64,000 bases of DNA from Candidatus Buchananbacteria bacterium (lineage in GTDB: Bacteria > Patescibacteriota > Patescibacteriia > 2-01-FULL-39-33), in assembly GCA_041666945.1 (NCBI GenBank), contig JBAYFY010000003.1, positions 7,392 through 71,391 on the forward strand, given 5' to 3'. The position numbers and the translations under genes were made by a program. The notes beneath the pieces are model-generated. The model was not told the DNA's origin. It saw only the letters and a program-made list of their open reading frames with translations, and searched no databases. Below are positions 14,301 through 46,596 of this stretch, in pieces; the first letter of the stretch is position 1; each line of letters starts with the position of its first letter.

Positions 14301-14920
14301 AAACCCACAGTGCACTCGCGACTGCGCCGCTCTTGCGGCCAATTGGGAAAAGCCGAATCGGAAAACTCGCAAATAGTCACTTTTTTCTTTGTGCTGTCAG
14401 GCAAGCAATCGGCGCCGATGCAATTCGGTATGCAACTGGGATCAGTCAGAACGCAACCGCCCCAAAACTCGTCATCACCGCAAATCTGTTGGCCACCGCA
14501 ACCGCCGCTGCTGCAAGATTTGATATCGCCGGGAGTACACGGCTGCCCTTGAGGATTGAACCAGGACATTAAAAATGAAGCGATGGCAAAAGCGGAAAAA
14601 ATGATCACTAAGCCGATAATCGCATTATAGATCATTTTTTTGGCTTTATTGACTTTATCCGGATCGCCTCCGGCCGTCATCCATAAAAAGCCGGCGTAAA
14701 TAATTAGCAGTAACGCCACCACGCCCAGTAAACCGAAAACAACCTGCAGAATGCGACCGATAATCATACCCAAACTGGCAGTACCGAAAATTCCTGACAA
14801 ACTTTCTAATGTGGGCGCGCTTGGAGTTTGCGCCCAGGCAAAATTACCGACGGCAAAAAATGCCGCCAATATCAGCAGGGAAAAAACGATTTTCAATTTT
14901 GTCTTGCGTTTTACAGGCAT
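2330..14920 (-). CDS. Giant (4196 aa) secreted, extremely cysteine-rich multidomain surface protein. Signal peptide plus VirB2/TrbC-like two-helix pilin-like N-module; IPT/TIG-like domains; lamin-tail domain; LamG/concanavalin-A-like jelly-roll; Myxococcus-type cysteine-rich repeats (CGNxxxExGExCDDGN).
   Basis: Single uninterrupted 12.6-kb ORF. N-terminus MPVKRKTKLKIVFSLLILAAFFAVGNFAWA (signal) followed by GRILQVVFGLLGVVALLLIIYAGFLWMTAGGDPDKVNKAKKMIYNAIIGLVIIFSAFAIASF (two TM helices). EWVEIYNPTVSPVSLDDWRI is LTD-like. LTISAWVRLDN...LYINGQEAGS...IDELKVYNRALSADEV is LamG-like. CGNKLVEPGEDCDDGN, CGNARIEYGEQCDDGN and CGNNRIETGEECDDGS are MXAN Cys-rich repeats. Confidence 0.8.
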   Translation of the reverse strand: MPVKRKTKLKIVFSLLILAAFFAVGNFAWAQTPSAPTLESLSGIFGTASLGMIIGRILQVVFGLLGVVALLLIIYAGFLWMTAGGDPDKVNKAKKMIYNAIIGLVIIFSAFAIASFLMSWFNPQGQPCTPGDIKSCSSGGCGGQQICGDDEFWGGCVLTDPSCIPNCIGADCLPDSTKKKVTICEFSDSAFPNWPQERRSRECTVGFYGSVQVPKSPTLQVKVYSYNADDAVSELSLFDLKDNTEKQIGSANVVSQIITINNQQYNAAAATLSWDTSLAEYDSLSSTTLRSFANNKSYPSNKIQAKFSPSHCFNGVKDVDEQGIDCGGGCAQNCSDFPCTRPDSPVCDDSNCINYCGANCYCVGNPVITWVDPSFDPNNDSSLRDINTLDDDIGYGAAGNYLTVYGRGFGRVAGEVRFVAKNSGAITLAKLADCASVWQDNKIVIEVPTGLDSVNDLPANYKIEVINKTKPQSPLVSNTWDFLANNIKLPGLCSIDPTSGVYPTAVDLTGRGFAADGTGKVIWYVRDSSVNYWRLVGVTSTAAVSWTDTTVKDVVPEGRRGDSVVRVYNGGYSNSVLFNIGNGSEGDSCGDNIGGDPAVCFASSADCRSNLTCQGCSNKSEDIGKWFYRVDCDMAKNCTCQKAAGQECVYNSDPAQNAVMGCDLGGCLGQKTCRADNTWGVCVKNDSACVPYLGTNPASLGLYSWSFLASLSPQAGRRCLSDLWQDGTCDPKNCGNDLGCDTAGSNEEWVEIYNPTVSPVSLDDWRIVYSGRQESIADLLSDSSAATYFIPRGVILEAGNYFIISTSTLNPGNNFQLRKDQGTIAFIKGLGDEIADIIIYNSSTVAFSPGSWGRKVDGLYTGSVKDFVYFPNSSPGQTNKIGQSSSTDHLVINEISLAHEACTCVPAAQLCTPNQTDLKSCPDLGNCKQQRVCQANGHWGGCEPLPNQVCYPTGQQASLSLYSWTFLATHELGPKKFYVVVDCSRGSACKDGDNLPSPTPSDRWTMATAGVTNSEACLNAAISARFNRPMDVKSLNEVETDLTMPGWKNLKIYKKDVSGEWQPVIPNGSFSSYASRDLGSPDLFDYFEFMPQTLEADTDYKVVLTSGVVSYEGFPLYVDQQALQSGGCDDLTKFPHAAFCWNFHTRSQGDNDKYCRVGCVHCSPQKFVNRYYGQERPHKSDVLSEDNVCIMLNADTFNWSWQEEEQTNGIWAKGTNNYSIISDFIRSKATSTAQKESDWRTYQDALFTSSDQGYFRIASIELTTGNSGTCPGHNNFTDPIVVENPVCVVGDNGLAGKLQSPSPFRGTTTEACINASLLALFSRNMTNATLDRTRIKVQKCAGTNAANDVLSTSLNACADIDLSKWQLDIFNYSHSDLSWQEIVSAPAEQYDSLAAEGIRLSPFNNSGPVRLDPNTFYRVIILGGDNGVRGAKSKQGIDEVREGVLQTPSLGDNYFSDGQNDYFWYFKTGAVDCPIDFVGVLPQKKLMKYTDESQIYIADPQHKCQHLNPYLYIWQWSSLLNLSDENTACNAATGNGVAQICSVSSAGVCPVVYTGSAPVVKVFGNSEGFTNIKARAVGSAQGGATCSADKWGRGELQIGYGGFKVINPTNDACLNTEVRFKFTTDAISASLKENDNILLYQCAVGDAACVISGANQPLNLVYPTLAEQQFTNEVAVKPVGLLATATPYRVVVKGGSSGPISFANSQLGGLNYATSQSKGSEQCDPTVYPFRPGDPYDGFCDSSTCLIKEGEDLCDTSLAECAAQDAALVAYYKFAAGNNLIDSSGHNYALRSAGNTNISFVGSPFGQAPKFVGSTGQTALETTNSAGLVSQLKNSNPLTISAWVRLDNGVLGLADAKDDRGLGIIASTYKYSDDASQLRGWTLGDDWGCALRWGCPAPDEIFFQIFDNSGQRAVVTYPDFFSNYGGKWTLVTGVFIPGNSIKLYINGQEAGSVKTAISSVAYDLATPLRIGHRADYLDQGQWDGLIDELKVYNRALSADEVGKLFSAGDYCDESCRAKGNSNSASCGNKLVEPGEDCDDGNIKNNDGCSAVCLWEGANARWNSRCGNARIEYGEQCDDGNANSADGCSSKCLYEAGYASGSGKYAALNCDNNNISTTTIQVSARSVAVSKVCFKNSVGCTADCLHTGSAPSAPVCGNNRIETGEECDDGSGKNGADKRCGATCLLNSAEKSGTCRNNKLDSGILDSYSWTFQLDQNAQYCEPFGVGLNPCPNGIWQFHPAKDVSEFTITLYKGYNGTTAPSGDCIAANNLGFWQRTIKQLVSFVKRMFGLRSVMAADYWCKLSEKTFDSSALQQMRWGNFQDSASFTTREGVTNNLEIIGYSVDNDSYELNYINKNNNWEANTEYRAAISYIKSKVRATTAATVLTFATACQIKKVTTNVWPKGDQKTVDSFFCNSDPAQGKPDDCGRYSADPYDDDMSAIWTNNPSQSGYSLDATGAPIVAEGVSYKSGNQHLYRSWARDGHGYPLRASFSWVLSNLNTDMVSSTVDYTNNNSFDIWMTPGKKTGKSILSISAADNNAANNGVNVGEGRGTMSIMNVECDNPWPAARYFPFEDTNANCKDGDSSSCINTNFWTWYCRDSGAANVCVMGDNTGQACQSQNDCFANGQYVEGSCRLYQDDDLPSIGDFTYDSVTNVIKPSTAVVIGGGDESCVNLPNTFVPKFGYYNNGDGKLYLWNSKGEVYARESIVGGESWHKVDKAPWQAAGLPANFKPVLGYYFNDDNSNCPAEAVQFWDAAGKYLTLKNGQWVTGSKYVGPKTNLPANFHPLAAYTYTLTIGGSEKTYLEIMDTDGNYAYWQQPNSCNNANDLPRWSEVKKEETRGLPADFKLATAYNVGNVLHVWSARGDHYRADVTAINFIFSKDDSAKSGLISGFKPVIAYYDNSYAGTGMPAEIISDGKFYYYKISNSWQRFTLQEKDCDAKVKEFLFTRSTTASAAAEAQIYLSAKDADFSDVDRVCGADTNCQPQIWADGSTVQMNANYSGLKFNFDVKSKGKYYVFLQTSDGFKALPGLVQKVDLKVDNNPTSTESIEASAPDDQQTTRFGTAAGAAYELDRGSHSALVRWTNDTPAGAAVDSNFRLYNIRLVKQESADLLDAVGIRVYDNNSHYSPARWYANRFGGKNNNPKSLLVDGYQAVSDGRTVYVAAADLTNDATQIYSSVYLMSYNLDANESTINIFNQLVNNWEFNVGDNLNPGEHSGGLYYNDSGENLKGCDNNPSGQDYCLTDIDCLKRGQSYCLSQKAKLIRDTKRLADVQEINVRLKNYYDQTRCSNDLAKICKTTANCSGSGVCGNYYPDLKSGTYIANKSYSAWPSWQQTLAAVLGGGNLPVDPINKFVGCASPASSVTCWNEDTKTMTCPSADSAVYSYIAANSGNSVTLSVKQEFGSNSNAWQPSWRLVPGLMYYNNAAGLRQNPFESYFVSSMCAALPPTCGNGQMDAGENCSNCYLDNACPISQSCQNQGGLWGCYAITNCGNGIKDVSEECDSGIGCTNCRCDSGYNCSGLTPFPVCGDGLIRGDETCEFDPATGKAFCEATAGAGCCCRYPTDPGCSGFCQCKAGYNCPSATPVINCGNGIKEPGEACDCGNTGYTPLPKPPLNLFECLANNGSNNQLYSNLRKGDSYQSCSADCQSIITAKFAYCGDGVVNGGEQCDSGQCCDGSCQWIIGGKPDDNQPGVTTKCNGDISQNAGECAVGYQWVSGRGCEPRIGQVCNEAGNCQCDTANNFVNTSTDPILLNCVCRTGYILKTGICQAIPLGQKCQDTENPVSLGNGTCTTCQEWCNLSEVPTAVGQANWDFYSSHTGFIWSVNNDPCRQTQVKGVACSPNPDIWSCAAAGNSCSDFSSCRTEIKYGPYCGNGVWDSQWETNKINDESADPEADGSNTYPKISDLTFCSDAPTGNLADPNASLDWNLPAYTGDADDYIIWKSNIPPQATQNSWEVHLLPYQGECVSGNSLSFDNELLGSVTEEGPYRISAKTKYSNSTDSLFLLFLKPSGLACFMANWDADKDYNCWWGCPGTHYRKGDTIYSPVTRDNSNANAFTMSNSSGFVCTNNGEIIGSNQFLLYDKDCRLISGQASANGAYISSLKYHQPIKIRFLRAYLDGQNYKIEDKWLTLDGSGNLIVGAAASEEDSKEYTGATLSSYSSFASKPLINCLNTCSANAGSANYCFEFRNRWGNIE

Positions 14921-14940: not shown

Positions 14941-17900
14941 TTAATCGCAACCGTTGCCGTCGCAACATTTTCCCAAACAGCACTTAGTTGCTCCGTTTGC
15001 ATCGGCTATGGGAAAATCCTTGGTAACCACCCAGCTGCCGTATTTAAATTTTGTCGTATCCGCAGAAGTGGCGATCGGTTCCATGCAGGTCTTGGCGCAA
15101 TTAACTTTAGCGCCCGTAATATCTTTACAATTCATATAACCGAAAGAGGCGGGATTGGTTTTGTTTATCGGAGACGGCATAGTCAAGGCAACATCGGCGA
15201 CGCAACCGGCGGTATTATATTCGTCATCAATCTTATAACGGCATTTATTAAACTCAATATTCGCTTGATAGCTCCAACCTGCGGGCAGCGCTGATGAATC
15301 AGCGGCGGCATTTTGCGGACCGGAACCGGGCAAATAACAATTCTGCGTGACTGATTCCAGGCCCGAACCGGCGCCGGGCGCGTAGGTAACCGCTTGGTCG
15401 TAAGGGTTGTGATCAACTAAGGCCACGCTATAATCAATCAAGCCATCACCTGAACCCTGGCCGTAAACATCGCCTTCGTCTAAATTATTTACTGCCGCCC
15501 AATAACCGACAGGGTTGGCGTTTTGCGTTACCGTGCCTAACATTAAAAAACGGGTATAGAAATTACGGTCGGCCAAACCTTCACCATAACCGAAACCGGG
15601 CTTAAGGGTAACGGGATTCATTAGTCGATCAAAAGCGAAAACAACCGGATCGCCAAAGACCTCGCTGCTATCCTGCCCCCAACTCTCATCGCCTCGGGGC
15701 TGGATGGAAAACAATAACGGCGATTTATCATCAATTACCGTGGAAACAAAAAATGACCAGGAAAAATCATCGCCTTTCGTCGGGTTGGCATCGTAAGTCG
15801 GCTTTTCAATCCCATTATCAATTACAAACGTATCATTGACCAAATAAGGATTGGTTTTGCCGGAGTAGCCATAAAGCGCGCCGGAAACGGCTTGCCCCGT
15901 ACGACCCTCCGCCACACCCACGGTTTTGCCTTGGTTATCAACCGCATTAGTGTAATTGCCATTTAAAGAATTACCGGACATATCCGTAATGCCGCTGGTA
16001 TCAGTCAAAGCGGCTTGAGGATAATAAATATCGTCTTTCTTGCAACGATCATAAGCGCCACCCTCGCATTGCCCGCCCCAGCGCTTGCACCAAACATTAC
16101 TGCCGTCATCAACGCTTTTGCCTTGGCAGGATTGCAAAACGGCTGCGGCAACCACGATTTGGAATGGTTCGGATTTGGCAGCGGCTCCGGCCGAAGGGTC
16201 AATCCAGCAGTATCTTTCTTTACCGCAAGCATTCTGGCCGCAAGGATAAATGCCGGTCATTTGCACGGTCTTATACTGATTAGAAACATCATACTTAATT
16301 CTATCGGCGGGAATGTCAATCCAAGTGTTGCCGACTTTAGTTTGAACCTTGACCGTATCGGTTAAATTCAACGGATTAATTGCTTTATTGAAAGTAACAA
16401 AGAAAATGGAATTATTATAAACGTCAGGTGCCGCGCCTTGCTGGGTTTTGAGTTGATTTTTATTTTTACCGGATAAATCGCCAACTATGGTCATGATGCT
16501 ATCAGCCGCCGATTTATCAATGCTTAAGTTATTGGCTCCGGCTCCTTTTGGTTTGATAATCAAATATGCCGGCGAGCCCGCGGGGCTGACTGAGACATCA
16601 ACTAAATTCTTCGCTCCCGAACCGGCGATGGCATTCCGCAGATTTTCCAAAGTGCCGCCAATATTACCGGCCTTAACCACTGCGGTATAATTAACTGTTG
16701 CCGGTTGACCGTCAATTCCGACTTGGGTCTTGGCGACGTTGACGCCGTTAGCGTAGGCATCAGAAGCAAAAATGAAATTAATTTTATTAGCGCCGTTATT
16801 AATAACATAGGTATCGCCGGCAACGGCCGTTTCGGCCGTAAATCTCCATTGACTGCCTTGGGTAAAAGTTCCGCCTTCCGCGGCTATAGTCAAACCGTTG
16901 CCTAAATCAAAACTGACGCCGCTGACAATAGTAAAGGTCTTGCCGGTAAGCGGAGCTGGGGAATCATTAGTAAAAGCAGCGCTTCTGCCATCGCTGGAAA
17001 CGGTAAAAGTTGCTGTCCCCGCGCCCAAATCAAAACCGCTCGGCGTACTGACATGGGCCTTAAAGCCGGCGGGAACATTGCCGCTGGCGTTAGTTAGCTC
17101 TTTCTTCAGGGCTCGGCCCAAAAAATATTCGCCTTGCAGTTTAACCGGCTTTTCTGCTTTCAAATTAACTAAGGATAGTAAAGTAGTGGTAGATCCGCCG
17201 GTAGTGGATTGCGAGGAAACGGAATATAAATCCGGCTCCGTATCAGGGTAAGGATAAACTTCATATTTAACCACCTGCGGCGGATTCAAATCCAATTTGC
17301 CGTTTGTCTTGAATGACCAGGTATAATAATCCATCTTCCATAGTTTGAAAATCGACTCGCCGGTGGAAGAAGCAATAATGCCGTTTTTCAACGTAACCAT
17401 AAATTCTCTATTGGCGCCGTCTTCTTTGCCTAAGAAAGAATTGGTTAAAAACACAAAGGTCTTATCATTGCCCGGAGTTTGAGTGACGGTGGTACTGGCG
17501 CCGTTAAAAGTTTGCGCGGTGAAATCGCCGTTTTCCAAACACTTGCGCGGGGTAGCTTCGGTATCGGCCTCGCAGATTTCAATGTTAGCGCTGGCGCTGT
17601 TGGAACAATAACCAGCGGCATTGGGAACGCAAATGCTGTCAGGTTTGATATTTGATTTGAAAGTTACCACGATCCTGGTGTTAATCGGCACATTGGTCTG
17701 ATTGGGCGCGGGATAAACGCTTTCAATCGGCCCGTTGCCGATACCGCCACGACCCCAATCGTCCGGTCCGCCGGGTATGCCGCCGCCGGGTATGCCGCCG
17801 CCTCCGCCTCGGCCGAATATTCCCATTAACCAAGTAGTAATGGCGAAAGCCGCAAAAATTATAACTAAACCGATAATGGCGTTATAAATTATTTTCTTGG

Positions 17901-18258
17901 CTTTATTGACCTTATCCGGATCGCCTCCAGCCGTCATCCAAATGAAACCGCCGTAAATAATTAAAAGTACCACGATTACTCCCAATAAGCCGAAAATAAC
18001 TTGCAACACCCGGCCGATGTAAGTGGCTAACGAGGTTTCAGTGGCAATCCCGGCGGCTTGGCCGACCGCTTGCAGATTAGCATCTTGCGCCAGAACGGAA
18101 CCGGCTAAAAAGAGACCGCAAAGGGAAATAAAAAACACCAAAATCAGCGCCAATGCCTGCTTGGTGTTTAAAGTCACGATCAAAAACGACTTTAGTTTTC
18201 CGCCCCGGGCGGAATTTGATCGGGAGAACTTTTGCATGGGGACAAAAGCTTTTAACAT
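14941..18258 (-). CDS. Large (1105 aa) secreted Cys-containing surface protein with the same signal peptide plus pilin-like two-helix N-module as the giant protein, followed by a Gly-rich linker and beta-rich repeats.
   Basis: N-terminus ...ALALILVFFISLCGLFLAGSVLAQDA (signal), then GRVLQVIFGLLGVIVVLLIIYGGFIWMTAGGDPDKVNKAKKIIYNAIIGLVIIFAAFAITTWLMGIFG. This is near-identical in pattern to residues 55-125 of the 4196-aa protein. It is followed by GRGGGGGIPGGGIPGG. The stop lies 20 nt upstream of the giant gene start, so co-transcription is likely. Confidence 0.75.
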   Translation of the reverse strand: MLKAFVPMQKFSRSNSARGGKLKSFLIVTLNTKQALALILVFFISLCGLFLAGSVLAQDANLQAVGQAAGIATETSLATYIGRVLQVIFGLLGVIVVLLIIYGGFIWMTAGGDPDKVNKAKKIIYNAIIGLVIIFAAFAITTWLMGIFGRGGGGGIPGGGIPGGPDDWGRGGIGNGPIESVYPAPNQTNVPINTRIVVTFKSNIKPDSICVPNAAGYCSNSASANIEICEADTEATPRKCLENGDFTAQTFNGASTTVTQTPGNDKTFVFLTNSFLGKEDGANREFMVTLKNGIIASSTGESIFKLWKMDYYTWSFKTNGKLDLNPPQVVKYEVYPYPDTEPDLYSVSSQSTTGGSTTTLLSLVNLKAEKPVKLQGEYFLGRALKKELTNASGNVPAGFKAHVSTPSGFDLGAGTATFTVSSDGRSAAFTNDSPAPLTGKTFTIVSGVSFDLGNGLTIAAEGGTFTQGSQWRFTAETAVAGDTYVINNGANKINFIFASDAYANGVNVAKTQVGIDGQPATVNYTAVVKAGNIGGTLENLRNAIAGSGAKNLVDVSVSPAGSPAYLIIKPKGAGANNLSIDKSAADSIMTIVGDLSGKNKNQLKTQQGAAPDVYNNSIFFVTFNKAINPLNLTDTVKVQTKVGNTWIDIPADRIKYDVSNQYKTVQMTGIYPCGQNACGKERYCWIDPSAGAAAKSEPFQIVVAAAVLQSCQGKSVDDGSNVWCKRWGGQCEGGAYDRCKKDDIYYPQAALTDTSGITDMSGNSLNGNYTNAVDNQGKTVGVAEGRTGQAVSGALYGYSGKTNPYLVNDTFVIDNGIEKPTYDANPTKGDDFSWSFFVSTVIDDKSPLLFSIQPRGDESWGQDSSEVFGDPVVFAFDRLMNPVTLKPGFGYGEGLADRNFYTRFLMLGTVTQNANPVGYWAAVNNLDEGDVYGQGSGDGLIDYSVALVDHNPYDQAVTYAPGAGSGLESVTQNCYLPGSGPQNAAADSSALPAGWSYQANIEFNKCRYKIDDEYNTAGCVADVALTMPSPINKTNPASFGYMNCKDITGAKVNCAKTCMEPIATSADTTKFKYGSWVVTKDFPIADANGATKCCLGKCCDGNGCD

Positions 18259-23418: not shown

Positions 23419-23937
23419 ATGAAAAAAAAATCATTTTGGGATAAAATGCCCGGCGGTGAATTATTTTTACAAGAGCGCTGGGCGGAAAAAGCTGAAGAAG
23501 AAAGAAAGGAGGGAGAAGAAAGAAAATCAACAAAAAGTGATTTTAAAACCATAGGAGAATCCGCTGATGAAGAAGTTGAATCAAAAGAAATAAAAATTTA
23601 TTATGAAATGATAGAAGCTGTAAAACAGGATGATGACTTGCAGCCCTTATTAGCCGATCTCAACAAGGCCATTATTAGTTACGCCAACAATTGCGATAAT
23701 CTAAGGGAAAATAGAAAAAGCCCTGAAAAAACAAAAGAGTTGGGAGATTACGACCATCAACGCAACATATCCCATAATGCCTTAATCGCCGCACTCAATG
23801 CTTTATCTCGCGCTTATGTCAAAAAATACGGCAAAAACATGTGGCGCTACCAAATAGATGAAGGTAGCGGAGACAGAGAAAGAATCGGCTATTGGGCGCG
23901 ATTGGTTTCCAAGCATGTAAAAAAATTAGTTGGGTAG
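23419..23937 (+). CDS. Hypothetical charged, predicted helical protein (172 aa)
   Basis: ORF immediately downstream of the LCP gene on the same strand. Glu/Lys-rich, no recognisable motif. Start uncertain (weak RBS). Confidence 0.4.
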   Translation: MKKKSFWDKMPGGELFLQERWAEKAEEERKEGEERKSTKSDFKTIGESADEEVESKEIKIYYEMIEAVKQDDDLQPLLADLNKAIISYANNCDNLRENRKSPEKTKELGDYDHQRNISHNALIAALNALSRAYVKKYGKNMWRYQIDEGSGDRERIGYWARLVSKHVKKLVG

Positions 23938-23989
23938 TTTTTATTGCTATAATAAGTTAAAATATCTTACAAAATTCATCATTGCACAA

Positions 23990-24027
23990 TAAAACCCCCC
24001 GGTTAATCCGGGAGGGTTTTATTATTA
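23990..24027. terminator. Bidirectional rho-independent terminator between the convergent 172-aa gene and leuS
   Basis: AAAACCCCCCGG-TTAAT-CCGGGAGGGTTTT hairpin with one mismatch, flanked by an A-run and a T-run. Confidence 0.5.
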
Positions 24028-24100
24028 TCGCTTTATTTTTTCAAACGCAATGCTCCCAATTTTATTGCCAAGCGTTTCTTAATGCGGCTTCATGATCAAA

Positions 24101-26965
24101 TCAAGTTACGATGGAAATTAATTTTCCCTTAATGAAAATGATTTTTTTCGGTTCGCCAATTAAATATTTTTTGACGTTCTTATCAGCCAAAGCAGCTGTC
24201 TTAACCGCTTCTTCGGTTGCATCTGTCGGCAAAATCAACTTAGCCCTGATCTTGCCGTTAACCTGCACCGGAATTTCTTTTTCCGCATCAATAATTTTTT
24301 CCGGATCGTACTGCGGCCATGACTCTTTGAAGATGCTATCCGTATGACCGAGTTTCTCCCATAATTCTTCGGCTAAATGCGGAGCGAAGGGAGACAAGAT
24401 GATTAAAATCTTTTCCCATTGCTCCCGACTAACGGCTTTAGCGTCGGGAATTTCATTAAACAAAATCATCATGGCGGAAATAGCGGTATTATAACTCATC
24501 GTTTCAATATCTTCGCCGACTTTCTTGACGGTTTTATCAAGTATAACTTCTACTTCGCTCTTCTCTTCTTTACTTAGAGTTTGCCGGCCGATATCCCACG
24601 CCTTATTCAAAAACCGGTGCACGCCCAAGATATTCTTGGTGCTCCAGGGCTTCATATCTTCCAAAGGGCCCATAAACATTTCATACAGGCGGAAAGTGTC
24701 AGCGCCGTATTCTTTCAGGATGTCGTCGGGATTAACCACATTGCCGCGCGACTTAGACATTTTTTCGCCATCCTCGCCCAAAATCAAACCTTGATTGACT
24801 AACTTAGCAAACGGTTCTTCCTGCGGCACGACGCCGATGTCAAACAAAACCATATTCCAAAAACGGGCATAAAGCAAATGCAAAACCGCGTGTTCGGCTC
24901 CGCCGAGATACAAATCAACCGGCAGCCAATATTTCATTTTTTCGGCAGCAGCGATAGCCGTGTCATTATGCGGATCAATATAGCGCAGCCAGTACCAAGA
25001 CGAACCCGCCCATTGTGGCATGGTGTTGGTTTCGCGCTTAGCCGGACCGCCGCAGTTGGGACAAGTCGTATTCACCCACTCGTCAATAGTCGCCAGTGGC
25101 GATTCGCCTGTGCCGGTCGGTTCGTATTTTTCCACTTCCGGCAAAGTCAGAGGTAAGTCCTTCTCATCCAGAGTTACAGTTCCGCATTTCTTGCAATGCA
25201 CCAAGGGAATCGGTTCGCCCCAATATCTTTGGCGGGAAAAAACCCAATCGCGCAATTTATAATTAACCGCTTTCCGGCCATAACCCTTCTCTTCCAGCCA
25301 GGCCGTCATCTTGCTGATTGCTTCTGCCGGCGCCAAGCCGTTTAAAAATTCCGAATTAACCATCAAGCCGTTATTCACGTCCGTATAAGCAATATCGCCT
25401 TTCTTAATCCGTTCCAGCCAAATATCCATTTCGGCATGAACCATAAAATCAACCGTCAGTTTCTCCGGTTCCAGCCATAAAATCTCATTCTGCGCTTCTT
25501 TTTCTTCCTCGGCTATTTCAGCTTGTTCTTCATCAACCAAATCAAATTGGATTAAATTGGTATAAGACACCCGATTAACGCCTTTATGATTGGCAAAATA
25601 CTCGGCTCGCACTTGTCCGCCCAGAATCTTGCCGTTTGCCAAATGCTTATAGCCGGTTTCTTCCAGCACTTCCCGCTTAGCGGCGGCAAGCGGTTCTTCA
25701 CCTTCGCTCATTCCGCCCATGGGAAAAGTATTCCAGTTATATTTTTTTGAATGCAGAACAAGGATTTTTCCGGTTCGCGGATTGCGGACAACGACTTGAA
25801 CGTTTTTCCGTTCCACTTTTTCCTTGCCGTCCACTGGCGGATTTCTTTTGTCTATCCTTTCTGGAACAATGACTTCAATAATCGGCAAATCAAATTTTTT
25901 GGCAAATTCAAAATCCCTATCATCATGAGCCGGCACAGCCATAATCGCGCCCGTACCGTAAGACGCCAGGACATAATCGGAAATCCAAATTGGAATTTCC
26001 GCATTATTAACCGGATTGATTGCTTTAATGCCCTTCAACTCCATGCCGGTTTTATCTTTATTGAGTTCCGTCCGTTCCAAATCGGATTTATTTTTGGCAG
26101 AATCAATATAAGCTTCAACTTCAGCAAAATTAGAGATCTGGCCTTTCAATTCTTGCGCCAATTGATGTTCCGGCGCCAAAACCATGTAAGTCGCGCCGAA
26201 CAAGGTGTCGGGGCGAGTGGTATAGACAGTGATCTTTTTATCGCTTCCGGCAATCTTGAAGTCAACTTCGGCACCCTCGCTGCGGCCAATCCAATTTTTC
26301 TGCAAAATTTTAATGGACTGCGGCCAATCCAGCTGGTCAACGCCTTTCAGCAACCGATCGGCGTAAGCGGTGATCTTCAGCATCCACTGACGCATATCGC
26401 GGCGTTCCACTGCTGTGCCGCAACGATCGCATTTGCCGTTTTTGACTTCCTCATTGGCCAATCCGGTTTTGCACGACGGACAAAAATTAATCGGCACGGT
26501 CGCCTCGTAAGCCAAACCCTTTTTAAAAAGTTGCAAAAAAATCCACTGCGTCCATTTGTAATATTTCGGATCGGTCGTATCCACTTCCCTGTCCCAATCG
26601 TAAGAAAACCCGAGCGATTGGATTTGGCGCTTGAAGGTGGCGATGTTCTGTTCGGTGGTAAGCCGCGGATGCGTGCCGGTTTTGATGGCATAATTTTCCG
26701 CCGGCAAACCGAAAGCGTCCCAGCCCATCGGGTGCAAAACATTAAAACCTTTTAATCGCAAGTAACGGGAATAAATATCGGTTGCCGTGTAACCTTCCGG
26801 ATGACCGACATGCAGGCCCGCTCCCGACGGATAGGGAAACATATCCAAAATATACTTCTTGGGCTTGGCGCCGAAATCATCGGCTCGATCAATTTTGGTG
26901 TTCAGCCATTTTTTTTGCCACTTGGCTTCGCCGCCAGCGGCTAAAAACTCTTTATACGAAAGCAT
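24101..26965 (-). CDS. leuS: Leucyl-tRNA synthetase carrying an inserted NUDIX hydrolase domain of about 165 aa
   Basis: HVGHPEGY (HIGH), EKMSKSRGN (KMSKS), CP1 editing domain. Between ...FDLPIIEVI and [12 protein letters not shown] lies a domain with a perfect Nudix box [23 protein letters not shown] (GX5EX7REUXEEXGU). Confidence 0.9.
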
Positions 26966-27099
26966 ATTTTTATTATTTAAGATAGTTTTAGATTAACACA
27001 AAATTACTACTATTTCAATAACTGATTCAATAACTAAAATTAAGCCGAGATTTTGACCTGATTCTTTCAGCCCGATCAAATAGGCGTTGTCGCTACGTA

Positions 27100-27128
27100 T
27101 TGACTTGCAACACCAAAAGTGCTACACT
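27100..27128 (+). promoter_or_regulatory. Sigma70-like promoter (TTGACT, 17 bp spacer, TACACT) for the small plus-strand gene
   Basis: TTGACT at 27100-27105, 17-bp spacer, TACACT at 27123-27128. GGAG RBS at about 27166-27169 and ATG at 27182. Confidence 0.4.
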
Positions 27129-27181
27129 AAAAGCCGACCCGTTGAATCAATGATCTCCGCAACTCAAATTGGAGAAAAAAA

Positions 27182-27436
27182 ATGAAAACTATTCCGGTGC
27201 TGACTTCGATTCTGGGAAACCTAAAATGGCTTATAATCGGCAATGTCATTTGTTTGATTACTATGTTATTTTTGCTACCCATCAATAATTTGACGGAAAT
27301 AGAAGAAAAAATCTTACTGGCTTTCTGTGGCTCAATAGCGGTGGCATCAATGTTCTCTTTCGTTTTTATTATGATTGCCGTCTGCCTTTTGCCTCTACCG
27401 GAAAAAACCGAGGATAATGAAAACACCGAGGAGTAA
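27182..27436 (+). CDS. Small (84 aa) two-TM membrane protein
   Basis: Preceded by the promoter-like element and a GGAG RBS. Two hydrophobic helices. Followed by a terminator hairpin at 27621..27656. The overlapping minus-strand 122-aa ORF lacks these signals. Confidence 0.45.
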   Translation: MKTIPVLTSILGNLKWLIIGNVICLITMLFLLPINNLTEIEEKILLAFCGSIAVASMFSFVFIMIAVCLLPLPEKTEDNENTEE

Positions 27437-27620
27437 ATAGACAACGGACGGATGGAGGGACGGGGGGACCGGCAAAAAGAAAAGCGGGCGATCAATTCCC
27501 ATGCGGGTTTATCGCCGGAATTGTTAAAAAAATAAGAATAACTGTTTGTTTTACCTTTTCCTAACCGAAATATTTACCGGTTTTATGATTGCCGGCTGCT
27601 AAGAGTACCTTAAACTAAAC

Positions 27621-27656
27621 CCCCTCCTCGGAGCTGTAGCTCTGAGGAGTTTTTCT
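27621..27656 (+). terminator. Rho-independent terminator after the small membrane-protein gene
   Basis: CCTCCTCGGAGC-TGTA-GCTCTGAGGAG hairpin followed by TTTTT. Confidence 0.45.
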
Positions 27657-27662
27657 TTAATC

Positions 27663-27699
27663 AAAAAAACACGACTATTTTGTAAGCCGTGTTTTTATG
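27663..27699. terminator. Bidirectional terminator downstream of uvrA (minus strand)
   Basis: AAAACACG-(14-nt loop)-CGTGTTTT hairpin flanked by A7 and T5. Confidence 0.5.
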
Positions 27700-27750
27700 T
27701 GTTTATAGAAAGTCGCCTTGATACTTCAATGCTCTGCCGCGGGGTCGACT

Positions 27751-30636
27751 TCATTTGCCCAAAATTTTCTTCAGATACTGTCCGGTGTAGCTTTCTTTGA
27801 CCCGCGCCACATCATAGGGCGTGCCGGCCGCCACCACGTAACCGCCTTTTTCTCCGCCTTCCGGACCCAGATCAATCACCCAATCGGCTGATTTTATTAC
27901 TTCAAGATTGTGCTCAATAATCAATACTGAATTGTCTTTGTCGGCTAGACGATTTAAGACGTGCAACAAGCGCTTGATATCTTCAAAATGCAAACCGGTG
28001 GTCGGCTCATCCAGGATATACAAGGTCTTGCCGGTCGGTCGGCGGGACAATTCCGTTGCCAGTTTGACGCGTTGCGCCTCGCCGCCGGATAAAGTGGTGG
28101 CGGGCTGGCCCAATTTAAGATAACCCAAACCGACTTGATCCAAAATTTCCAATTTATCAATAATTTGGTCATGGCCGGAAAAAAACTTTTTGGCTTCAGC
28201 GACCGACATGGCCAAAACGTCGGCGATATTCTTGCCTTTATAATAAATCTCCAAGGCCTCGCGATTATAGCGCTGGCCGTGGCATTCCTCGCATTCCACG
28301 TAAACGTCCGGTAAAAATTGCATTTCAATTTTAACCATGCCGTCGCCGCCGCAGGTTTCGCAGCGTCCGCCGCCTTTGACGTTGAAAGAAAAATGGCCCT
28401 GTTTGAATCCGCGCATTTTGGCTTCAGGCAGCTCGGAAAACAAGTCGCGGATGTAAGTGAACACGCCGGTATAAGTCGCCGGATTGCTGCGCGGCGTACG
28501 GCCGATGGGCGACTGATCAATATCAATTACCTTATCCAAATTCTCCAGTCCCTTGATTTCTTTATGCCGGCCCGGCAAGTCCTTGGTGCGGTAAAATCTG
28601 TTAGACAAGGCCTTGGCCAGAATTTCATTCATTAAGGTGGATTTGCCGCTGCCGGATACGCCGGTAATCACCACCAGCTTGCCCAAAGGAATCTTAACGT
28701 CAATGTTTTTTAAATTGAACTCTTTGGCGCCGATGATTTCAATTGATTTGCCATTACCTTCGCGCAATTGGCTTTTGGCTTCAATGCGCCTGACTCCCGC
28801 CAGATATTGGCCGGTCAAAGATTTTTTATTTTTCTTCACCTGGCTGATAGCGCCTTCGGCCACCACTTCCCCGCCCAAAGCGCCGGCGCCCGGCCCGATG
28901 TCAATCAGCCAATCGGAAGCCATCATGATCTGCTCATCATGTTCAACCACGACCACCGAATTGCCTTTGTCGCGCAAGGTCTTTAGGGTATTGATTAATT
29001 TTTCCGTATTGCGCGGGTGCAAGCCGATGGACGGCTCATCCAGCACATAGGTTACCGACTCCAAGCCGGAACCGATTTGCACGGCCAAACGGATGCGTTG
29101 GGCTTCCCCGCCGGCCAAAGTATTGGCGGCGCGCGACAAGGTCAGATACTCCAAACCGACGTTTTTCAAAAATGACAGTTTTTTTAACGCTTCGCGGATC
29201 AATTGCTTGGCAATTTTGCCCTCGCGCCTGTCTTCCCATTTCCTGACGAAACCGGACAAAAATTCCTCCAAGTCAGTCAAGGACAGATTTGTCACCTGCG
29301 AAATATTTTTTCCTTCCACTTTAACCGACAAGCTCTCCGGCCGCAGCCGAGTGCCATGGCAAATCGGGCAAGTGGACACGCGCATGTAATCTTCCAATGT
29401 TTTCTGCAAATATTCCGATTTAGTGTCATTATATTTGTCATCCAGAAATTTCAAAACGCCCTCAAACAGCAGCGGCTTGCCGTCTACCGGATATTCCCGG
29501 CCGTCGCCTTCAAAAATCAAATCAACGACTTTTTCCGGCAATTCGGCTACGGGCGCATGCAAAGAAAAATCATACGCTTTGGCCACCGCTTCCAATAATT
29601 TCATGTTGGAATTCTGGCTGGCAAAGTTGCGCGACCAGGGTTTAATGGCGCCTTCGGCCAGAGTCAAGCGCTTATTGGGAATAATCAAATCGCGATCGGG
29701 ATTAAGCTTGACGCCCAAGCCGCGGCAAGACGGGCAAGCACCGAAAGGCGAATTGAAAGAGAAGGATCGGGGTTCAACTTCGGGAATGCTCAATTGGCAT
29801 TTGGCGCAATAGTAATAAAGATTGAAAGCAATTTCCTGGCTGTCGCCTCCGGTTAAAGCGGGTAAGGCGATAACATTGACAAAACCGTTGCTTAAATCCA
29901 AAGCCACGAGCAGGGCTTTGTTCAGGCGTTGGAAAGACACGTCCTTGTCGTTCTGTTCCTTAATTTCCTTGGTGACGGGCAGATTGTCAATCTGCACTTC
30001 AATCGTGTGCGCTAAATCCTTATCCAAAGACAGTTTGCCGCCGGAAATTTCGTGCGCTTGGTAAAAATTGCCGTCAATGCGGAAAATTTCATAATTGACG
30101 CGCAATAAATTATCAATGACTTTGGCATGATTGCCTTTTTTATTGATTACTATGGGTGATAAAAGCGAAATACGGTTGCCTTCGGGCAACTTGGATAAAC
30201 GTTCCAAAATCTGCCCGGCGGTTTGGCGGGTCAGGGGTTCGCCGCACTTGTGGCAATGCACAATGCCGACTTTGGCATAAAGCAAACGCAGATAATCATA
30301 AATTTCCGTCACGGTGCCGACAGTGGAGCGGGGGTTAATGGAAGAAGATTTTTGGTCAATGGCGATGGTCGGCGATAAGCCGTCAATTGAATCCACGTCC
30401 GGCTTGTCCATTAAATCCAAAAATTGTTTGGCGTAAGAAGATAAGGACTCGGCGTAACGTCTTTGGCCTTCGGCGTAAATCGTGTCAAAAGCCAGGGAGG
30501 ATTTGCCCGAACCGGACAGGCCGGTGATGACTACCAACTGGTCCTTGGGGATGTCCACGGAAATGTTTTTCAGATTATTGACTCTGGCGCCGCGGACACT
30601 GATTTGTTTGTGGCCGGAAGAGAAAGATTTTGGCAT
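27751..30636 (-). CDS. uvrA: Excinuclease ABC subunit A
   Basis: 961 aa. Two ABC ATPase modules ([28 protein letters not shown]), Zn-finger Cys clusters, LSGGEAQR signature motifs. Confidence 0.9.
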
Positions 30637-46563: not shown

Positions 46564-46596
46564 ATAATTAAAATTATTAAAACAAAAAAACACCAA

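What the first reader, a model, noticed from the sequence alone, without database searches (positions are those of the whole stretch)
25375..25870. NUDIX hydrolase domain inserted into leucyl-tRNA synthetase
Within an otherwise canonical LeuRS (HIGH, CP1 editing, KMSKS all present), about 165 residues are inserted between ...FDLPIIEVI and [12 protein letters not shown]. The latter is the conserved block that directly follows in other bacterial LeuRS. The insert carries a textbook Nudix box, [23 protein letters not shown], with all catalytic Glu residues, so it is probably an active pyrophosphohydrolase.

Inference: aaRSs generate aminoacyl-adenylates and dinucleoside polyphosphates (Ap4A). A covalently attached Nudix enzyme could hydrolyse Ap4A or AppppN alarmones, or mis-activated adenylates, at the site of synthesis. 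To my knowledge this fusion has not been described. Together with the IleRS insertion below, it suggests a lineage-specific theme.
Basis: partly seen in the sequence, partly recalled or inferred. Interest (0 to 1): 0.65.

Follow-up and report, generated by a model that had tools for sequence, protein, structure and literature searches.

The report
Swappable Nudix hydrolase nested in LeuRS
The leucyl-tRNA synthetase of this candidate-phyla-radiation (CPR) bacterium really does carry an intact, strongly conserved Nudix hydrolase domain inside its editing domain; the domain belongs to a CPR Nudix subfamily found inside or next to tRNA synthetase genes in many genomes and swapped between them like a cassette, though what it hydrolyses is still unknown.

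Summary
The 954-aa LeuRS (window 24101-26965, minus strand) has all its catalytic and editing motifs. It also has a 154-aa in-frame insert (aa 367-520) in a loop of the CP1 editing domain, 19 residues after the editing-site Asp.

- **The insert is a Nudix domain.** It passes Pfam NUDIX (E=2.4e-14), has a perfect Nudix box, folds confidently (pLDDT 92), and has dN/dS≈0.08, the same as the LeuRS core.
- **It is widespread.** About 100 of the 150 best 50%-identity clusters matching the insert are LeuRS with embedded Nudix, all CPR where labelled. They use three sites and carry one to three copies.
- **It behaves like a cassette.** Insert divergence is uncoupled from core divergence (82% core / 30% insert; 52% / 64%), and one relative about 80% identical has an empty site.
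- **It is tied to aaRS genes.** The same subfamily is inserted in a class II ProRS. Seven of ten free-standing members lie within two genes of an aaRS, including directly upstream of an insert-less leuS.
- **Other enzymes use the same scaffold.** Other CPR LeuRS host Ham1, HAD, Ser-hydrolase or nucleotidyltransferase domains, and this genome's IleRS hosts a histidine phosphatase.

The substrate is unresolved. The nearest relatives are Ap4A hydrolase, RppH, MutT1 and decapping enzymes. Ap4A remains possible; aminoacyl-AMP is chemically unlikely. No publication was found.

The parts
24101..26965 (-). leuS: bacterial-type leucyl-tRNA synthetase, 954 aa, host of the insertion
   Evidence: ORF. TIGR00396 scores 1075.9 bits against a cut-off of 548.4. 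phmmer to Tth LeuRS 1h3n gives E=2.8e-230. Full-length AF2 model: pLDDT 87.6, pTM 0.78. TM 0.79-0.84 normalised to solved LeuRS chains.
25406..25867 (-). In-frame 154-aa insertion (aa 367-520) holding the Nudix domain and its N-terminal leader; boundaries good to about 1 residue
   Evidence: Junction comparison with the empty-site allele L014. Residue numbering. Identity breakpoints against L005 and P0081 fall at q~350-365 and q~530-545. AF2 of the insert alone: pLDDT 92.3, pTM 0.86. dN/dS 0.08.
25427..25810 (-). Pfam NUDIX (PF00293) match, aa 386-513
   Evidence: E=2.4e-14, 53.9 bits against a cut-off of 21.1. Foldseek probability 1.00 to many solved Nudix hydrolases.
25649..25717 (-). Nudix box [23 protein letters not shown] (aa 417-439), with E423, R431, E432, E435, E436
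   Evidence: Only strict match in six frames of the window. G417, G418, E432, E435 and E436 are invariant across 17 full-length orthologues.
25571..25600 (-). Subfamily signature downstream of the box: [10 protein letters not shown] (aa 456-465; [FY][FY]A.HK..NR)
   Evidence: K461 is invariant, and N464 and R465 nearly invariant, in embedded and free-standing members. The segment aligns to HYWYTLKGE of the Aquifex Ap4A hydrolase 3i7u.
25370..25405 (-). Native CP1 loop retained after the insert ([12 protein letters not shown], aa 521-532); equivalent to Tth LeuRS 363-379
   Evidence: The same AYTDV(D/N)N residues are present in the insert-less L014.
25913..25930 (-). Editing-site motif AHDDRD (aa 346-351, conserved Asp348), 19 residues before the insertion point
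   Evidence: Aligned to Tth AVPAHDQRD. H347, D348, R350 and D351 are invariant.
26204..26221 (-). CP1 threonine-rich editing motif TTRPDT (aa 249-254)
26801..26812 (-). HIGH signature (HVGH, aa 52-55)
   Evidence: H52 and H55 are invariant.
24749..24763 (-). KMSKS signature (aa 735-739)
   Evidence: K735, M736, S737 and K738 are invariant.

Best explanation
**What is shown.** The segment is an independently folding Nudix pyrophosphohydrolase domain with a complete catalytic box. It is nested in a surface loop of the CP1 editing domain of a fully equipped LeuRS, and it is under purifying selection as strong as the synthetase core.

It belongs to a distinct Nudix subfamily whose labelled members are all candidate-phyla-radiation (Patescibacteria) bacteria. 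The signature is W..F..GG.E.GE...A..RE..EETGY ... [FY][FY]A..K..NR ... W. Members of this subfamily are:
- (i) embedded in LeuRS at three sites, in one to three copies;
- (ii) embedded in a class II ProRS;
- (iii) free-standing, immediately next to leuS, proS, argS/ileS or a metG-like gene.

The cassette's history is uncoupled from that of the host gene. It has been gained, lost and replaced, with breakpoints exactly at the insert borders.

**What is inferred.** The domain works as an autonomous Mg2+-dependent hydrolase tethered to the synthetase. It is not part of aminoacylation or editing chemistry. Its substrate is a nucleotide polyphosphate tied to aaRS activity. The most likely class is dinucleoside polyphosphates or Np4-type 5' caps (the Ap4A class), with damaged or non-canonical NTPs as the next option. 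Aminoacyl-AMP is not expected to be a substrate.

Turnover probably occurs by homologous recombination through the very conserved flanks (AVPAHDxRDxEFAKK and G.M.NS...[19 protein letters not shown]), not by self-mobility.
For: **Domain identity.** Pfam NUDIX E=2.4e-14. Perfect box, unique in the window. AF2 pLDDT 92.3, and 87-92 in the full-length context with the CP1 elements intact. Foldseek probability 1.00 to Nudix enzymes.

**Selection.** dN/dS is 0.084 and 0.079 in the insert, against 0.074 and 0.093 in the core, versus L001 and L002. The box is kept in 89 of 113 embedded copies, and the catalytic Glu residues are invariant in 17 orthologues.

**Spread.** 412 clusters match at E<1e-3. 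Of the top 150, 106 contain LeuRS parts. All 37 long representatives pass Pfam NUDIX together with the LeuRS domains. Site census.

**Cassette behaviour.** Insert and core identity are uncorrelated (Spearman 0.04 over 741 pairs). Examples: L005 82%/30%, P0081 75%/30%, L003 52%/64%. Breakpoints are sharp. L014 has an empty site at about 80% core identity.

**aaRS link.**
- P0017 lies 2 nt, and P0077 136 nt, upstream of a LeuRS with Nudix.
- P0090 lies 3 nt upstream of a LeuRS without the insert.
- P0049 lies between ArgRS and an IleRS.
- P0037 and P0064 lie near ProRS genes.
- P0100 lies upstream of a MetRS-like fragment.
- That is 7 of 10, with a binomial probability of about 7e-6.
- The L089 ProRS carries the same subfamily (E=1e-20).
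- L035 has a Nudix ORF directly upstream of leuS.

**Substrate class.** By profile, the nearest solved chains are AvrM14-A (7e-8), Aquifex Ap4A hydrolase 3i7u (1e-7), 2azw and lupin Ap4A hydrolase. Structural neighbours include MutT1/Rv2985 (a diadenosine polyphosphatase), RppH (one entry bound to Ap4A), Ndx1 Ap6A hydrolase and CT771. The review PMC9437257 records that an aaRS (LysU) makes Ap4A and Ap4 caps on RNA.
Against: - No substrate assignment passes any curated threshold. The NCBIfam RppH, MutT1, YtkD and NudE equivalogs all score far below their cut-offs.
- Fold neighbours share only about 20% identity at TM 0.55-0.69, and they span several specificities.
- The same LeuRS loops host unrelated enzymes: Ham1, HAD, Ser_hydrolase and an ANT(2'')-like nucleotidyltransferase. 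This argues that LeuRS may simply be a permissive scaffold.
- Some free-standing members sit in nucleotide-sanitation or salvage contexts instead: Fpg/MutM, dUTPase with Tmk, PRPP synthetase, uridine kinase.
- A close relative lives without the insert and without a nearby free-standing copy.
- From my own recollection of the older biochemical literature, LeuRS is a weak Ap4A producer and ArgRS makes none.
- The neighbourhood sample is small (10 look-ups) and not fully independent, since P0017 and P0090 share a context.
- dS is near saturation (1.4-1.9), so the dN/dS values are approximate.
- No coordinates were available, so the orientation of the Nudix active site relative to the LeuRS active sites is unknown.
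Confidence: 0.45

Rival explanations
1. Generic house-cleaning passenger. The Nudix domain sanitises the nucleotide pool (MutT, NUDT15 or ITPase-like role on oxidised or non-canonical NTPs). It uses LeuRS only as a permissive, constitutively expressed scaffold in a tiny genome, with no mechanistic coupling to aminoacylation.
For: - The same LeuRS loops host other classic house-cleaning or small hydrolase domains: Ham1 (L015, P0085), HAD (P0010), Ser_hydrolase (L017, P0081), and ANT(2'')-like nucleotidyltransferase (L004, L016).
- This genome's IleRS hosts His_Phos_1.
- Free-standing P0041 lies 4 nt after Fpg/MutM on three contigs. P0049 is in a block with dUTPase, Tmk and three other Nudix genes. 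P0037 lies by PRPP synthetase. P0061 lies by a uridine-kinase-family gene.
- Fold neighbours include MutT1 and NUDT15.
- JGI names P0017 'MutT'.
- A close relative does without the insert.
Against: - 7 of 10 free-standing members of this particular subfamily lie within two genes of an aaRS.
- The subfamily is embedded in two unrelated aaRS classes.
- The MutT1 equivalog scores 25 bits against a cut-off of 475.
- The nearest profile hits are Ap4A-hydrolase and decapping types rather than MutT.
Confidence: 0.33
2. Detoxification or resistance module. The CP1 loop is a docking site for exchangeable enzymes (Nudix, esterase, phosphatase, nucleotidyltransferase) that inactivate nucleotide-mimicking or other natural aaRS inhibitors at their target.
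For: - Rapid cassette turnover and presence/absence among close relatives resemble accessory or resistance traits.
- The inserted domain types are typical drug-modifying folds (ANT(2'')-like nucleotidyltransferase, alpha/beta hydrolase, HAD).
- NCBIfam has an 'ileS_w_GNAT' exception model, so at least one aaRS with a fused modifying enzyme is catalogued.
- LeuRS is the target of the nucleotide antibiotic agrocin 84 (PDB 3zgz and 5ah5 appear among the structural hits).
Against: - No direct evidence.
- PADLOC gives nothing meaningful.
- No known aaRS inhibitor is a canonical Nudix substrate (my knowledge).
- Strong purifying selection and a very wide distribution fit a housekeeping role equally well.
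Confidence: 0.07
3. Non-catalytic module. The Nudix fold serves as a nucleotide sensor, a tRNA/RNA-binding surface or a dimerisation element that modulates editing or aminoacylation.
For: - 24 of 113 embedded copies lack a strict box. Several of these are second tandem copies (P0002, P0006, P0007, P0011), which suggests a non-catalytic partner role for some copies.
- The insertion lies 19 residues after the editing Asp, inside CP1.
- Free-standing copies coexist with embedded ones next to the same gene.
Against: In this protein and its clade every catalytic residue is intact and invariant. dN/dS is 0.08. Free-standing members are ordinary single-domain enzymes by sequence.
Confidence: 0.08
4. 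Artefact or selfish element: an assembly chimera, an intein, or an intron-like insertion that is removed before the mature enzyme forms.
For: It is an insertion in a conserved gene with sharp boundaries and patchy distribution.
Against: - The insert is in frame and has the same composition as the rest of the gene.
- It is found in independent assemblies from many studies.
- No Hint or homing-endonuclease domains are detected.
- The junction residues are V...I|K rather than C/S...HN|C/S/T.
- There are no flanking repeats beyond chance, and no Rfam intron.
- It is under protein-level purifying selection.
Confidence: 0.01

Closest known systems
Nudix-type Ap4A/ApnA hydrolases and RppH-like RNA 5'-end pyrophosphohydrolases (e.g. 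Aquifex aq_158 3i7u, lupin 1f3y, T. thermophilus Ndx1, E. coli RppH, flax-rust AvrM14)
   Same: Same fold and a complete Nudix box. These are the best profile and structure matches. The aromatic pair plus Lys downstream of the box aligns with HYWYTLK of 3i7u. Their substrates (Ap4A, Np4 caps) are products of aaRS side reactions (PMC9437257).
   Different: - Only about 20% identity, with E around 1e-7.
- No curated equivalog threshold is met.
- The subfamily has its own K..NR / W signature and an N-terminal leader.
- It is embedded in an aaRS rather than free-standing.
- Activity has not been measured.
MutT / MutT1 / NUDT15-type nucleotide-pool sanitising Nudix enzymes
   Same: They are among the top structural neighbours (5ggc, 6m72, 5bon). 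One free-standing subfamily member is paired with Fpg/MutM, as expected for a GO-system partner. Ham1/ITPase domains co-occur in some LeuRS.
   Different: The NCBIfam MutT1 model scores 25 bits against a cut-off of 475. The dominant genomic association is with aaRS genes, not with repair genes.
Canonical bacterial LeuRS with a CP1 editing domain (T. thermophilus 1h3n/2bte, E. coli 4aq7)
   Same: 39% identity (Foldseek) to Tth LeuRS. All catalytic and editing motifs are present. TM 0.79-0.84.
   Different: The CP1 domain is itself an insertion in the Rossmann fold, and here it is in turn the host of another catalytic domain. A 2026 survey of domain insertions found the LeuRS editing domain to behave only as an insert, never as a host, in 213 events (PMC13114784).
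aaRS with fused accessory enzymes (NCBIfam NF040702 'isoleucine--tRNA ligase, N-acetyltransferase domain-containing'; cis editing domains of ThrRS/AlaRS/ProRS)
   Same: An extra catalytic domain is carried within an aaRS polypeptide.
   Different: - The domain type is different (Nudix).
- It is nested inside the editing domain.
- It uses multiple sites and copy numbers.
- It is exchanged between lineages, and there are free-standing paralogues adjacent to the host gene.

Membership tests
Nudix hydrolase superfamily (Pfam PF00293) | Profile match above the curated gathering score | tested here: met
   53.9 bits against a cut-off of 21.1, E=2.4e-14, aa 386-513.
Nudix hydrolase superfamily (Pfam PF00293) | Nudix box GX5EX7REUXEEXGU with the catalytic Glu residues | tested here: met
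   [23 protein letters not shown] at aa 417-439. E432, E435 and E436 are invariant in orthologues.
Nudix hydrolase superfamily (Pfam PF00293) | Alpha/beta/alpha sandwich Nudix fold | tested here: met
   AF2 pLDDT 92.3. Foldseek probability 1.00 and TM up to 0.69 (normalised to the query) or 0.76 (to the target) against solved Nudix enzymes.
Nudix hydrolase superfamily (Pfam PF00293) | Divalent-cation-dependent hydrolysis of a nucleoside diphosphate linked to X | not testable with these tools
   Needs an enzyme assay.
Bacterial leucyl-tRNA synthetase (NCBIfam TIGR00396 leuS_bact) | Equivalog score above the cut-off | tested here: met
   1075.9 bits against 548.4.
Bacterial leucyl-tRNA synthetase (NCBIfam TIGR00396 leuS_bact) | HIGH and KMSKS class I signatures, plus CP1 editing motifs (T-rich motif, conserved Asp) | tested here: met
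   HVGH 52-55, KMSKS 735-739, TTRPDT 249-254, D348.
Bacterial leucyl-tRNA synthetase (NCBIfam TIGR00396 leuS_bact) | Overall LeuRS architecture preserved despite the insert | tested here: met
   Full-length model pLDDT 87.6. TM 0.79-0.84 normalised to Tth, E. coli and N. gonorrhoeae LeuRS.
Nudix-type Ap4A hydrolase | Specific sequence-profile relationship to characterised Ap4A hydrolases | tested here: inconclusive
   3i7u at E=1e-7 and 1f3y at E=1e-6 are among the best hits. AvrM14, the uncharacterised 2azw and ADP-sugar pyrophosphatases score similarly.
Nudix-type Ap4A hydrolase | Aromatic residue (Tyr) about 16-18 residues after the box (rule recalled from the Bessman-lab literature, not re-read here) | tested here: inconclusive
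   Y456 lies 17 residues after Y439, and the [FY][FY] pair is conserved. The rule comes from memory and is not exclusive to this family.
Nudix-type Ap4A hydrolase | Asymmetric hydrolysis of Ap4A to ATP + AMP | not testable with these tools
   Needs an enzyme assay.
RppH (RNA pyrophosphohydrolase) | NCBIfam equivalog cut-off | tested here: not met
   Best model NF001938 scores 29.1 bits against a cut-off of 116, and the match covers only the box region.
MutT1 / 8-oxo-(d)GTP phosphatase | NCBIfam equivalog cut-off | tested here: not met
   NF052459 scores 25.3 bits against a cut-off of 475.
Intein or other self-removing insertion | Hint or homing-endonuclease domains, and C/S at the N-junction with HN + C/S/T at the C-junction | tested here: not met
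   No such Pfam hits. The junctions are EVI|VPE... and ...ERI|KKG.
Known anti-phage defence proteins (PADLOC-DB) | Significant match to a defence-system model | tested here: not met
   Only PDC-S07 at E=9e-4 over 36 residues (the box), and nothing for the full protein.

The most novel reading that the evidence does not exclude
This CPR Nudix subfamily is a dedicated partner of aminoacyl-tRNA synthetases. It is supplied either in trans, from a gene abutting leuS, proS or argS, or in cis, as a recombination-exchangeable cassette nested in the enzyme. Its role is to remove a nucleotide by-product of the aminoacylation reaction, such as Ap4A/Np4N, or Np4 caps on RNA or tRNA. More broadly, the class I aaRS loops of CPR bacteria would form a previously unrecognised 'docking platform' where small hydrolase cassettes (Nudix, Ham1, HAD, histidine phosphatase, esterase, nucleotidyltransferase) are gained, lost and swapped between lineages.
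Probability: 0.25. Interest if true: 0.8.

Novelty: new variant of a known kind. Interest (0 to 1): 0.62.

Why it matters
Bacterial aaRS are usually regarded as architecturally frozen, and CP1 as a pure insert module. Here an essential synthetase's editing domain hosts a second, catalytically intact enzyme, and that enzyme is exchanged between lineages.

If the Nudix domain acts on Ap4A or Np4-type products, it would be the first physical coupling of alarmone or cap synthesis with its degradation on one polypeptide. That coupling would be directly testable with a single recombinant protein and a Glu-to-Gln control.

If it is only a passenger, it still shows how ultra-small CPR genomes package house-cleaning enzymes. 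It also shows that LeuRS tolerates large insertions at defined loops, which is useful for protein engineering and for interpreting LeuRS as a phylogenetic marker.

There is a practical point too. These proteins are mis-named or called 'partial' in public databases.

Tried and rejected
- **Word-indexed homology search with the insert alone:** no hits. This was superseded by the exhaustive HMMER search.
- **Simple vertical inheritance of the insert:** rejected. Insert and core identity are discordant and the breakpoints are sharp.
- **Intein, intron or transposon origin:** rejected. No Hint or endonuclease domains, wrong junction residues and no target-site duplication, only chance-level repeats, and no Rfam match in 23800-27900.
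- **Relic of a free-standing Nudix gene in the 785-bp spacer upstream of leuS:** none found. The spacer is not conserved with L001 or L002.
- **Other Nudix genes in the window:** none.
- **Free-standing copy compensating for the empty site in L014:** none within about 2.4-3 kb on either side.
- **Defence-system membership:** no meaningful PADLOC hit.
- **Curated subfamily assignment (RppH, MutT1, YtkD, NudE, and others):** all far below their cut-offs.
- **Aminoacyl-adenylate hydrolysis:** rejected on chemical grounds. It is an acyl-phosphate, not a diphosphate; this is reasoning, not a test.
- **Literature:** five searches for a LeuRS or aaRS-Nudix fusion found nothing relevant.
- **P0086:** an unrelated low-complexity false positive of the HMMER search.
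Full report
**1. The observation**

The region lies inside one long ORF on the minus strand, 24101..26965 (954 aa).
- It is a bacterial-type LeuRS: NCBIfam TIGR00396 scores 1075.9 bits against a cut-off of 548.4, and phmmer to T. thermophilus LeuRS 1h3n gives E=2.8e-230.
- The motifs are intact and invariant among orthologues: HIGH (HVGH 52-55), KMSKS (735-739), the CP1 threonine-rich motif (TTRPDT 249-254) and the editing Asp (D348 in AHDDRD).
- Pfam finds NUDIX (PF00293) at aa 386-513 with E=2.4e-14, above its gathering score. The LeuRS editing-domain model is interrupted at profile position 146 of 185.
- The alignment to 1h3n jumps from query 366/Tth 362 to query 532/Tth 380.
- The box [23 protein letters not shown] (aa 417-439) fits GX5EX7REUXEEXGU exactly. 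It is the only such match in six frames of the 64 kb window.
- A close relative, L014 (about 80% identical), has an empty site: EVI|KGGDIKKEAYTDVDNG. The window reads EVI|VPERID...WLERI|[13 protein letters not shown]. The net insertion is therefore 154 aa (aa 367-520, window 25406-25867), and the next 12 residues are the native loop.

**2. It is a real, folded, selected domain**
- With an alignment of 21 homologues, AlphaFold2 gives the insert pLDDT 92.3 and pTM 0.86, with the strand/helix order of a Nudix fold.
- In the full-length model (pLDDT 87.6, pTM 0.78) the Nudix blocks score 87-92. Both linkers are confident, and the CP1 elements on either side are preserved.
- The model superposes on solved LeuRS with TM 0.79-0.84, normalised to the target.
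- Against L001 and L002, dN/dS is 0.084 and 0.079 in the insert and 0.074 and 0.093 in the core. dS is 1.4-1.9, which is near saturation, so the ratios are approximate.
- There is no compositional anomaly.
- Nothing suggests an intein, an intron or a transposon. There are no Hint or endonuclease domains, the junction residues are wrong and there is no target duplication, the repeats are at chance level, and there is no Rfam hit.

**3. It is not a singleton**

A genome-collection scan found the same insertion, with a conserved box, in 15 LeuRS loci (39-83% identity over the whole protein).
- Where the label is informative they are Patescibacteria/CPR: Buchananbacteria, Uhrbacteria and Paceibacterota.
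- A few are TPA-assembly MAGs labelled Gammaproteobacteria or Tenericutes, which I suspect are mislabelled. L006 is nearly identical to the Uhrbacteria locus L068 across the insert.

An exhaustive HMMER search of 1.84 billion cluster representatives with the insert alone gave 412 hits at E<1e-3.
- 106 of the best 150 contain LeuRS segments flanking the Nudix match.
- All 37 long ones pass Pfam NUDIX together with the LeuRS domains.
- About 98 embedded copies sit at this site, 15 near the N-terminal boundary of CP1 (q~210-245), and 3 at q~590-645.
- 96 proteins carry one copy, 7 carry two and 2 carry three.
- 89 of 113 embedded copies keep a strict box. Many degenerate ones are second tandem copies.

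Public sources label these proteins 'leucyl-tRNA synthetase' or 'class I tRNA ligase family protein, partial'. In one case the whole LeuRS is labelled 'RdgB/HAM1 family ... pyrophosphatase'.

Five literature searches found no description of the fusion. A 2026 survey of domain insertions reports the LeuRS editing domain as an insert in 213 of 213 events and never as a host (PMC13114784). This nested arrangement lies outside that pattern.

**4. The insert has its own history**

Across 38 full-length site-A proteins, identity to the query in the Nudix domain is unrelated to identity in the LeuRS core. Spearman is 0.04 over 741 pairs.

| Relative | Core identity | Nudix identity |
|---|---|---|
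| L001 | 85% | 81% |
| L002 | 82% | 76% |
| L005 | 82% | 30% |
| P0081 | 75% | 30% |
| L003 | 52% | 64% |

- L014 has no insert at all, and L027 has an unrelated insert.
- Sliding-window profiles place the identity breaks for L005 and P0081 exactly at the insert borders. Identity is 85-93% before q~350, 10-40% across the insert, and 75-97% after q~545.
- Saturation could flatten the correlation among distant pairs. It cannot explain 82%/30% next to 85%/81%.

I infer repeated gain, loss and replacement. The likely route is homologous recombination through the extremely conserved flanks, because no element-like features are present. This step is inference.

**5. A distinct subfamily tied to aaRS genes**

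Free-standing proteins of 160-200 aa share the leader and the signature beyond the box: W..F..GG.E.GE, [FY][FY]A..K..NR, FEL.D...EE...H..W. Context look-ups for ten of them gave the following.

| Member | Context |
|---|---|
| P0017 | 2 nt upstream of a LeuRS with Nudix |
| P0077 | 136 nt upstream of a LeuRS with Nudix |
| P0090 | 3 nt upstream of a LeuRS without the insert (the split form of the fusion) |
| P0049 | 13 nt after ArgRS, two genes before an IleRS with His_Phos_1, in a block with Tmk, dUTPase and three other Nudix genes |
| P0037 | beside PRPP synthetase, two genes from a ProRS |
| P0064 | two genes from a bacterial ProRS |
| P0100 | 40 nt upstream of a MetRS-like fragment |
| P0041 | 4 nt after Fpg/MutM, on three contigs |
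| P0053 | next to another Nudix gene |
| P0061 | next to a uridine-kinase-family gene |

- The ProRS near P0037 itself carries this same subfamily between its anticodon-binding and C-terminal domains (blastp E=1e-20).
- Seven of ten lie within two genes of an aaRS. Assuming 20 aaRS genes among 800, the chance expectation is about 10%, giving a binomial P of about 7e-6. It is about 5e-5 if two similar contexts are merged.
- The sample is small, and this is a lead rather than a proof.
- Scanning the 80 LeuRS loci with the subfamily HMM found one more Nudix ORF directly upstream of leuS (L035), and none near the empty-site L014.

**6. LeuRS as a scaffold for other enzymes**

Other CPR LeuRS carry other domains at the same loops:
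- ANT(2'')-like nucleotidyltransferase (L004, L016)
- Ham1/ITPase (L015; P0085 at E=3e-58)
- Ser_hydrolase (L017, P0081; 6 of 37 in the census)
- HAD (P0010; 2 of 37)
- unassigned inserts (L011, L027)

The window's own IleRS (43060-46596) has a His_Phos_1 domain (E=2.6e-39) inside its catalytic core. The same architecture recurs in L084.

**7. What it does**

Substrate specificity is not resolved.
- Curated equivalogs (RppH, MutT1, YtkD, NudE and others) are all far below their cut-offs.
- Foldseek neighbours share about 20% identity at TM 0.55-0.69. They include 2azw, M. smegmatis MutT1 and M. tuberculosis Rv2985 (a diadenosine polyphosphatase), RppH (one entry bound to Ap4A), NUDT15, CDP-Chase, Ndx1 Ap6A hydrolase, and the Ap4A hydrolases aq_158 and CT771.
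- The subfamily profile hits AvrM14-A (7e-8), Aquifex Ap4A hydrolase (1e-7), 2azw (2e-7) and lupin Ap4A hydrolase (1e-6). The conserved aromatic pair and Lys align to HYWYTLK of 3i7u.

The neighbours lean toward dinucleoside-polyphosphate and 5'-cap hydrolases, but not decisively.

aaRS do generate Ap4A and Ap4-capped RNA; this is documented for LysU (PMC9437257). Hydrolysis of aminoacyl-AMP is unlikely, because Nudix enzymes cleave diphosphate linkages (family knowledge).

The nucleotide-sanitation contexts (Fpg, dUTPase, Tmk, PRPP synthetase) and the co-hosted Ham1 and HAD domains support the rival view of a house-cleaning passenger.

My confidences are:
- 0.45 that it is an active, tethered, aaRS-linked nucleotide-polyphosphate hydrolase cassette
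- 0.33 that it is a passenger sanitiser
- 0.08 that it is non-catalytic
- 0.07 that it is a detoxification or resistance module
- 0.01 that it is an artefact or selfish element

**8. Verdict**

The feature is real, selected and widespread, and I could not find it described in the literature. It is a new variant of known kinds (an aaRS with an accessory domain; a Nudix hydrolase), with three unusual properties:
- it is nested inside CP1;
- it turns over like a cassette;
- it is associated with aaRS genes of both classes.

Interest is 0.62.

Noticed in passing
window 43060-46596 (-): The 1178-aa IleRS carries a histidine-phosphatase domain (Pfam His_Phos_1, E=2.6e-39, aa 521-694) inserted inside the class I catalytic core, plus a C-terminal DUF5915. 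An IleRS with the same architecture (1184 aa, 39% identical) occurs in L084, next to several Nudix genes.
   Followed up: partly
L015 3001-6468; L017 3001-6639; L004 627-3476; L016 1356-3773; proteins P0010, P0081, P0085: Other CPR LeuRS host different small enzymes in the same loops. These are Ham1/ITPase (L015, P0085), Ser_hydrolase (L017, P0081), HAD (P0010) and ANT(2'')-like nucleotidyltransferase (L004, L016). They often occur together with a Nudix copy.
   Followed up: partly
L089 2762-4693: A class II ProRS (643 aa) carries the same Nudix subfamily (about aa 397-528, E=1e-20 to the window's insert) between its anticodon-binding and C-terminal domains. A free-standing paralogue (P0037) lies two genes upstream.
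   Followed up: partly
proteins P0002, P0003, P0006, P0007, P0011: Some LeuRS carry two tandem Nudix copies at one site, and the second copy has a degenerate or missing Nudix box. That may be a pseudo-dimer arrangement. P0002 and P0006 have three copies in all.
   Followed up: partly
L027 1436-4567; L011 3001-5781: L027 (a Buchananbacteria LeuRS about 62-69% identical to the window's) has an unrelated insert of about 115 aa at the same site with no Pfam match. It also has a second insert of about 110 aa after the CxxC motif near q~600. L011 likewise has an unassigned insert at this site.
   Followed up: no
window 26966-27750: A 785-bp stretch between uvrA and leuS has no convincing ORF, no Rfam match and no Nudix relic. 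The spacer is about 150 bp in L002 and about 1.4 kb in L001, and it is not conserved.
   Followed up: partly
window 2330-14920 (-) and 14941-18258 (-): A giant 4196-aa ORF lies immediately downstream of an 1105-aa ORF with a type IV secretion pilin domain (PF18895) and a weak Ig-like match.
   Followed up: no
public records behind P0266 (MCK5490653.1), L006, L009, L017, L018: Possible annotation problems. A 1330-aa LeuRS with Nudix and Ham1 is named 'RdgB/HAM1 family non-canonical purine NTP pyrophosphatase'. Several TPA MAGs labelled Gammaproteobacteria or Tenericutes carry CPR-type LeuRS with these inserts; L006 is nearly identical to the Uhrbacteria locus L068 across the insert.
   Followed up: no
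L081 4016-5513 (also L082, L083): A free-standing member of the subfamily (P0041) is separated by 4 nt from an Fpg/MutM gene on three independent contigs. That pairing is reminiscent of the MutT-MutM 8-oxoguanine system.
   Followed up: no
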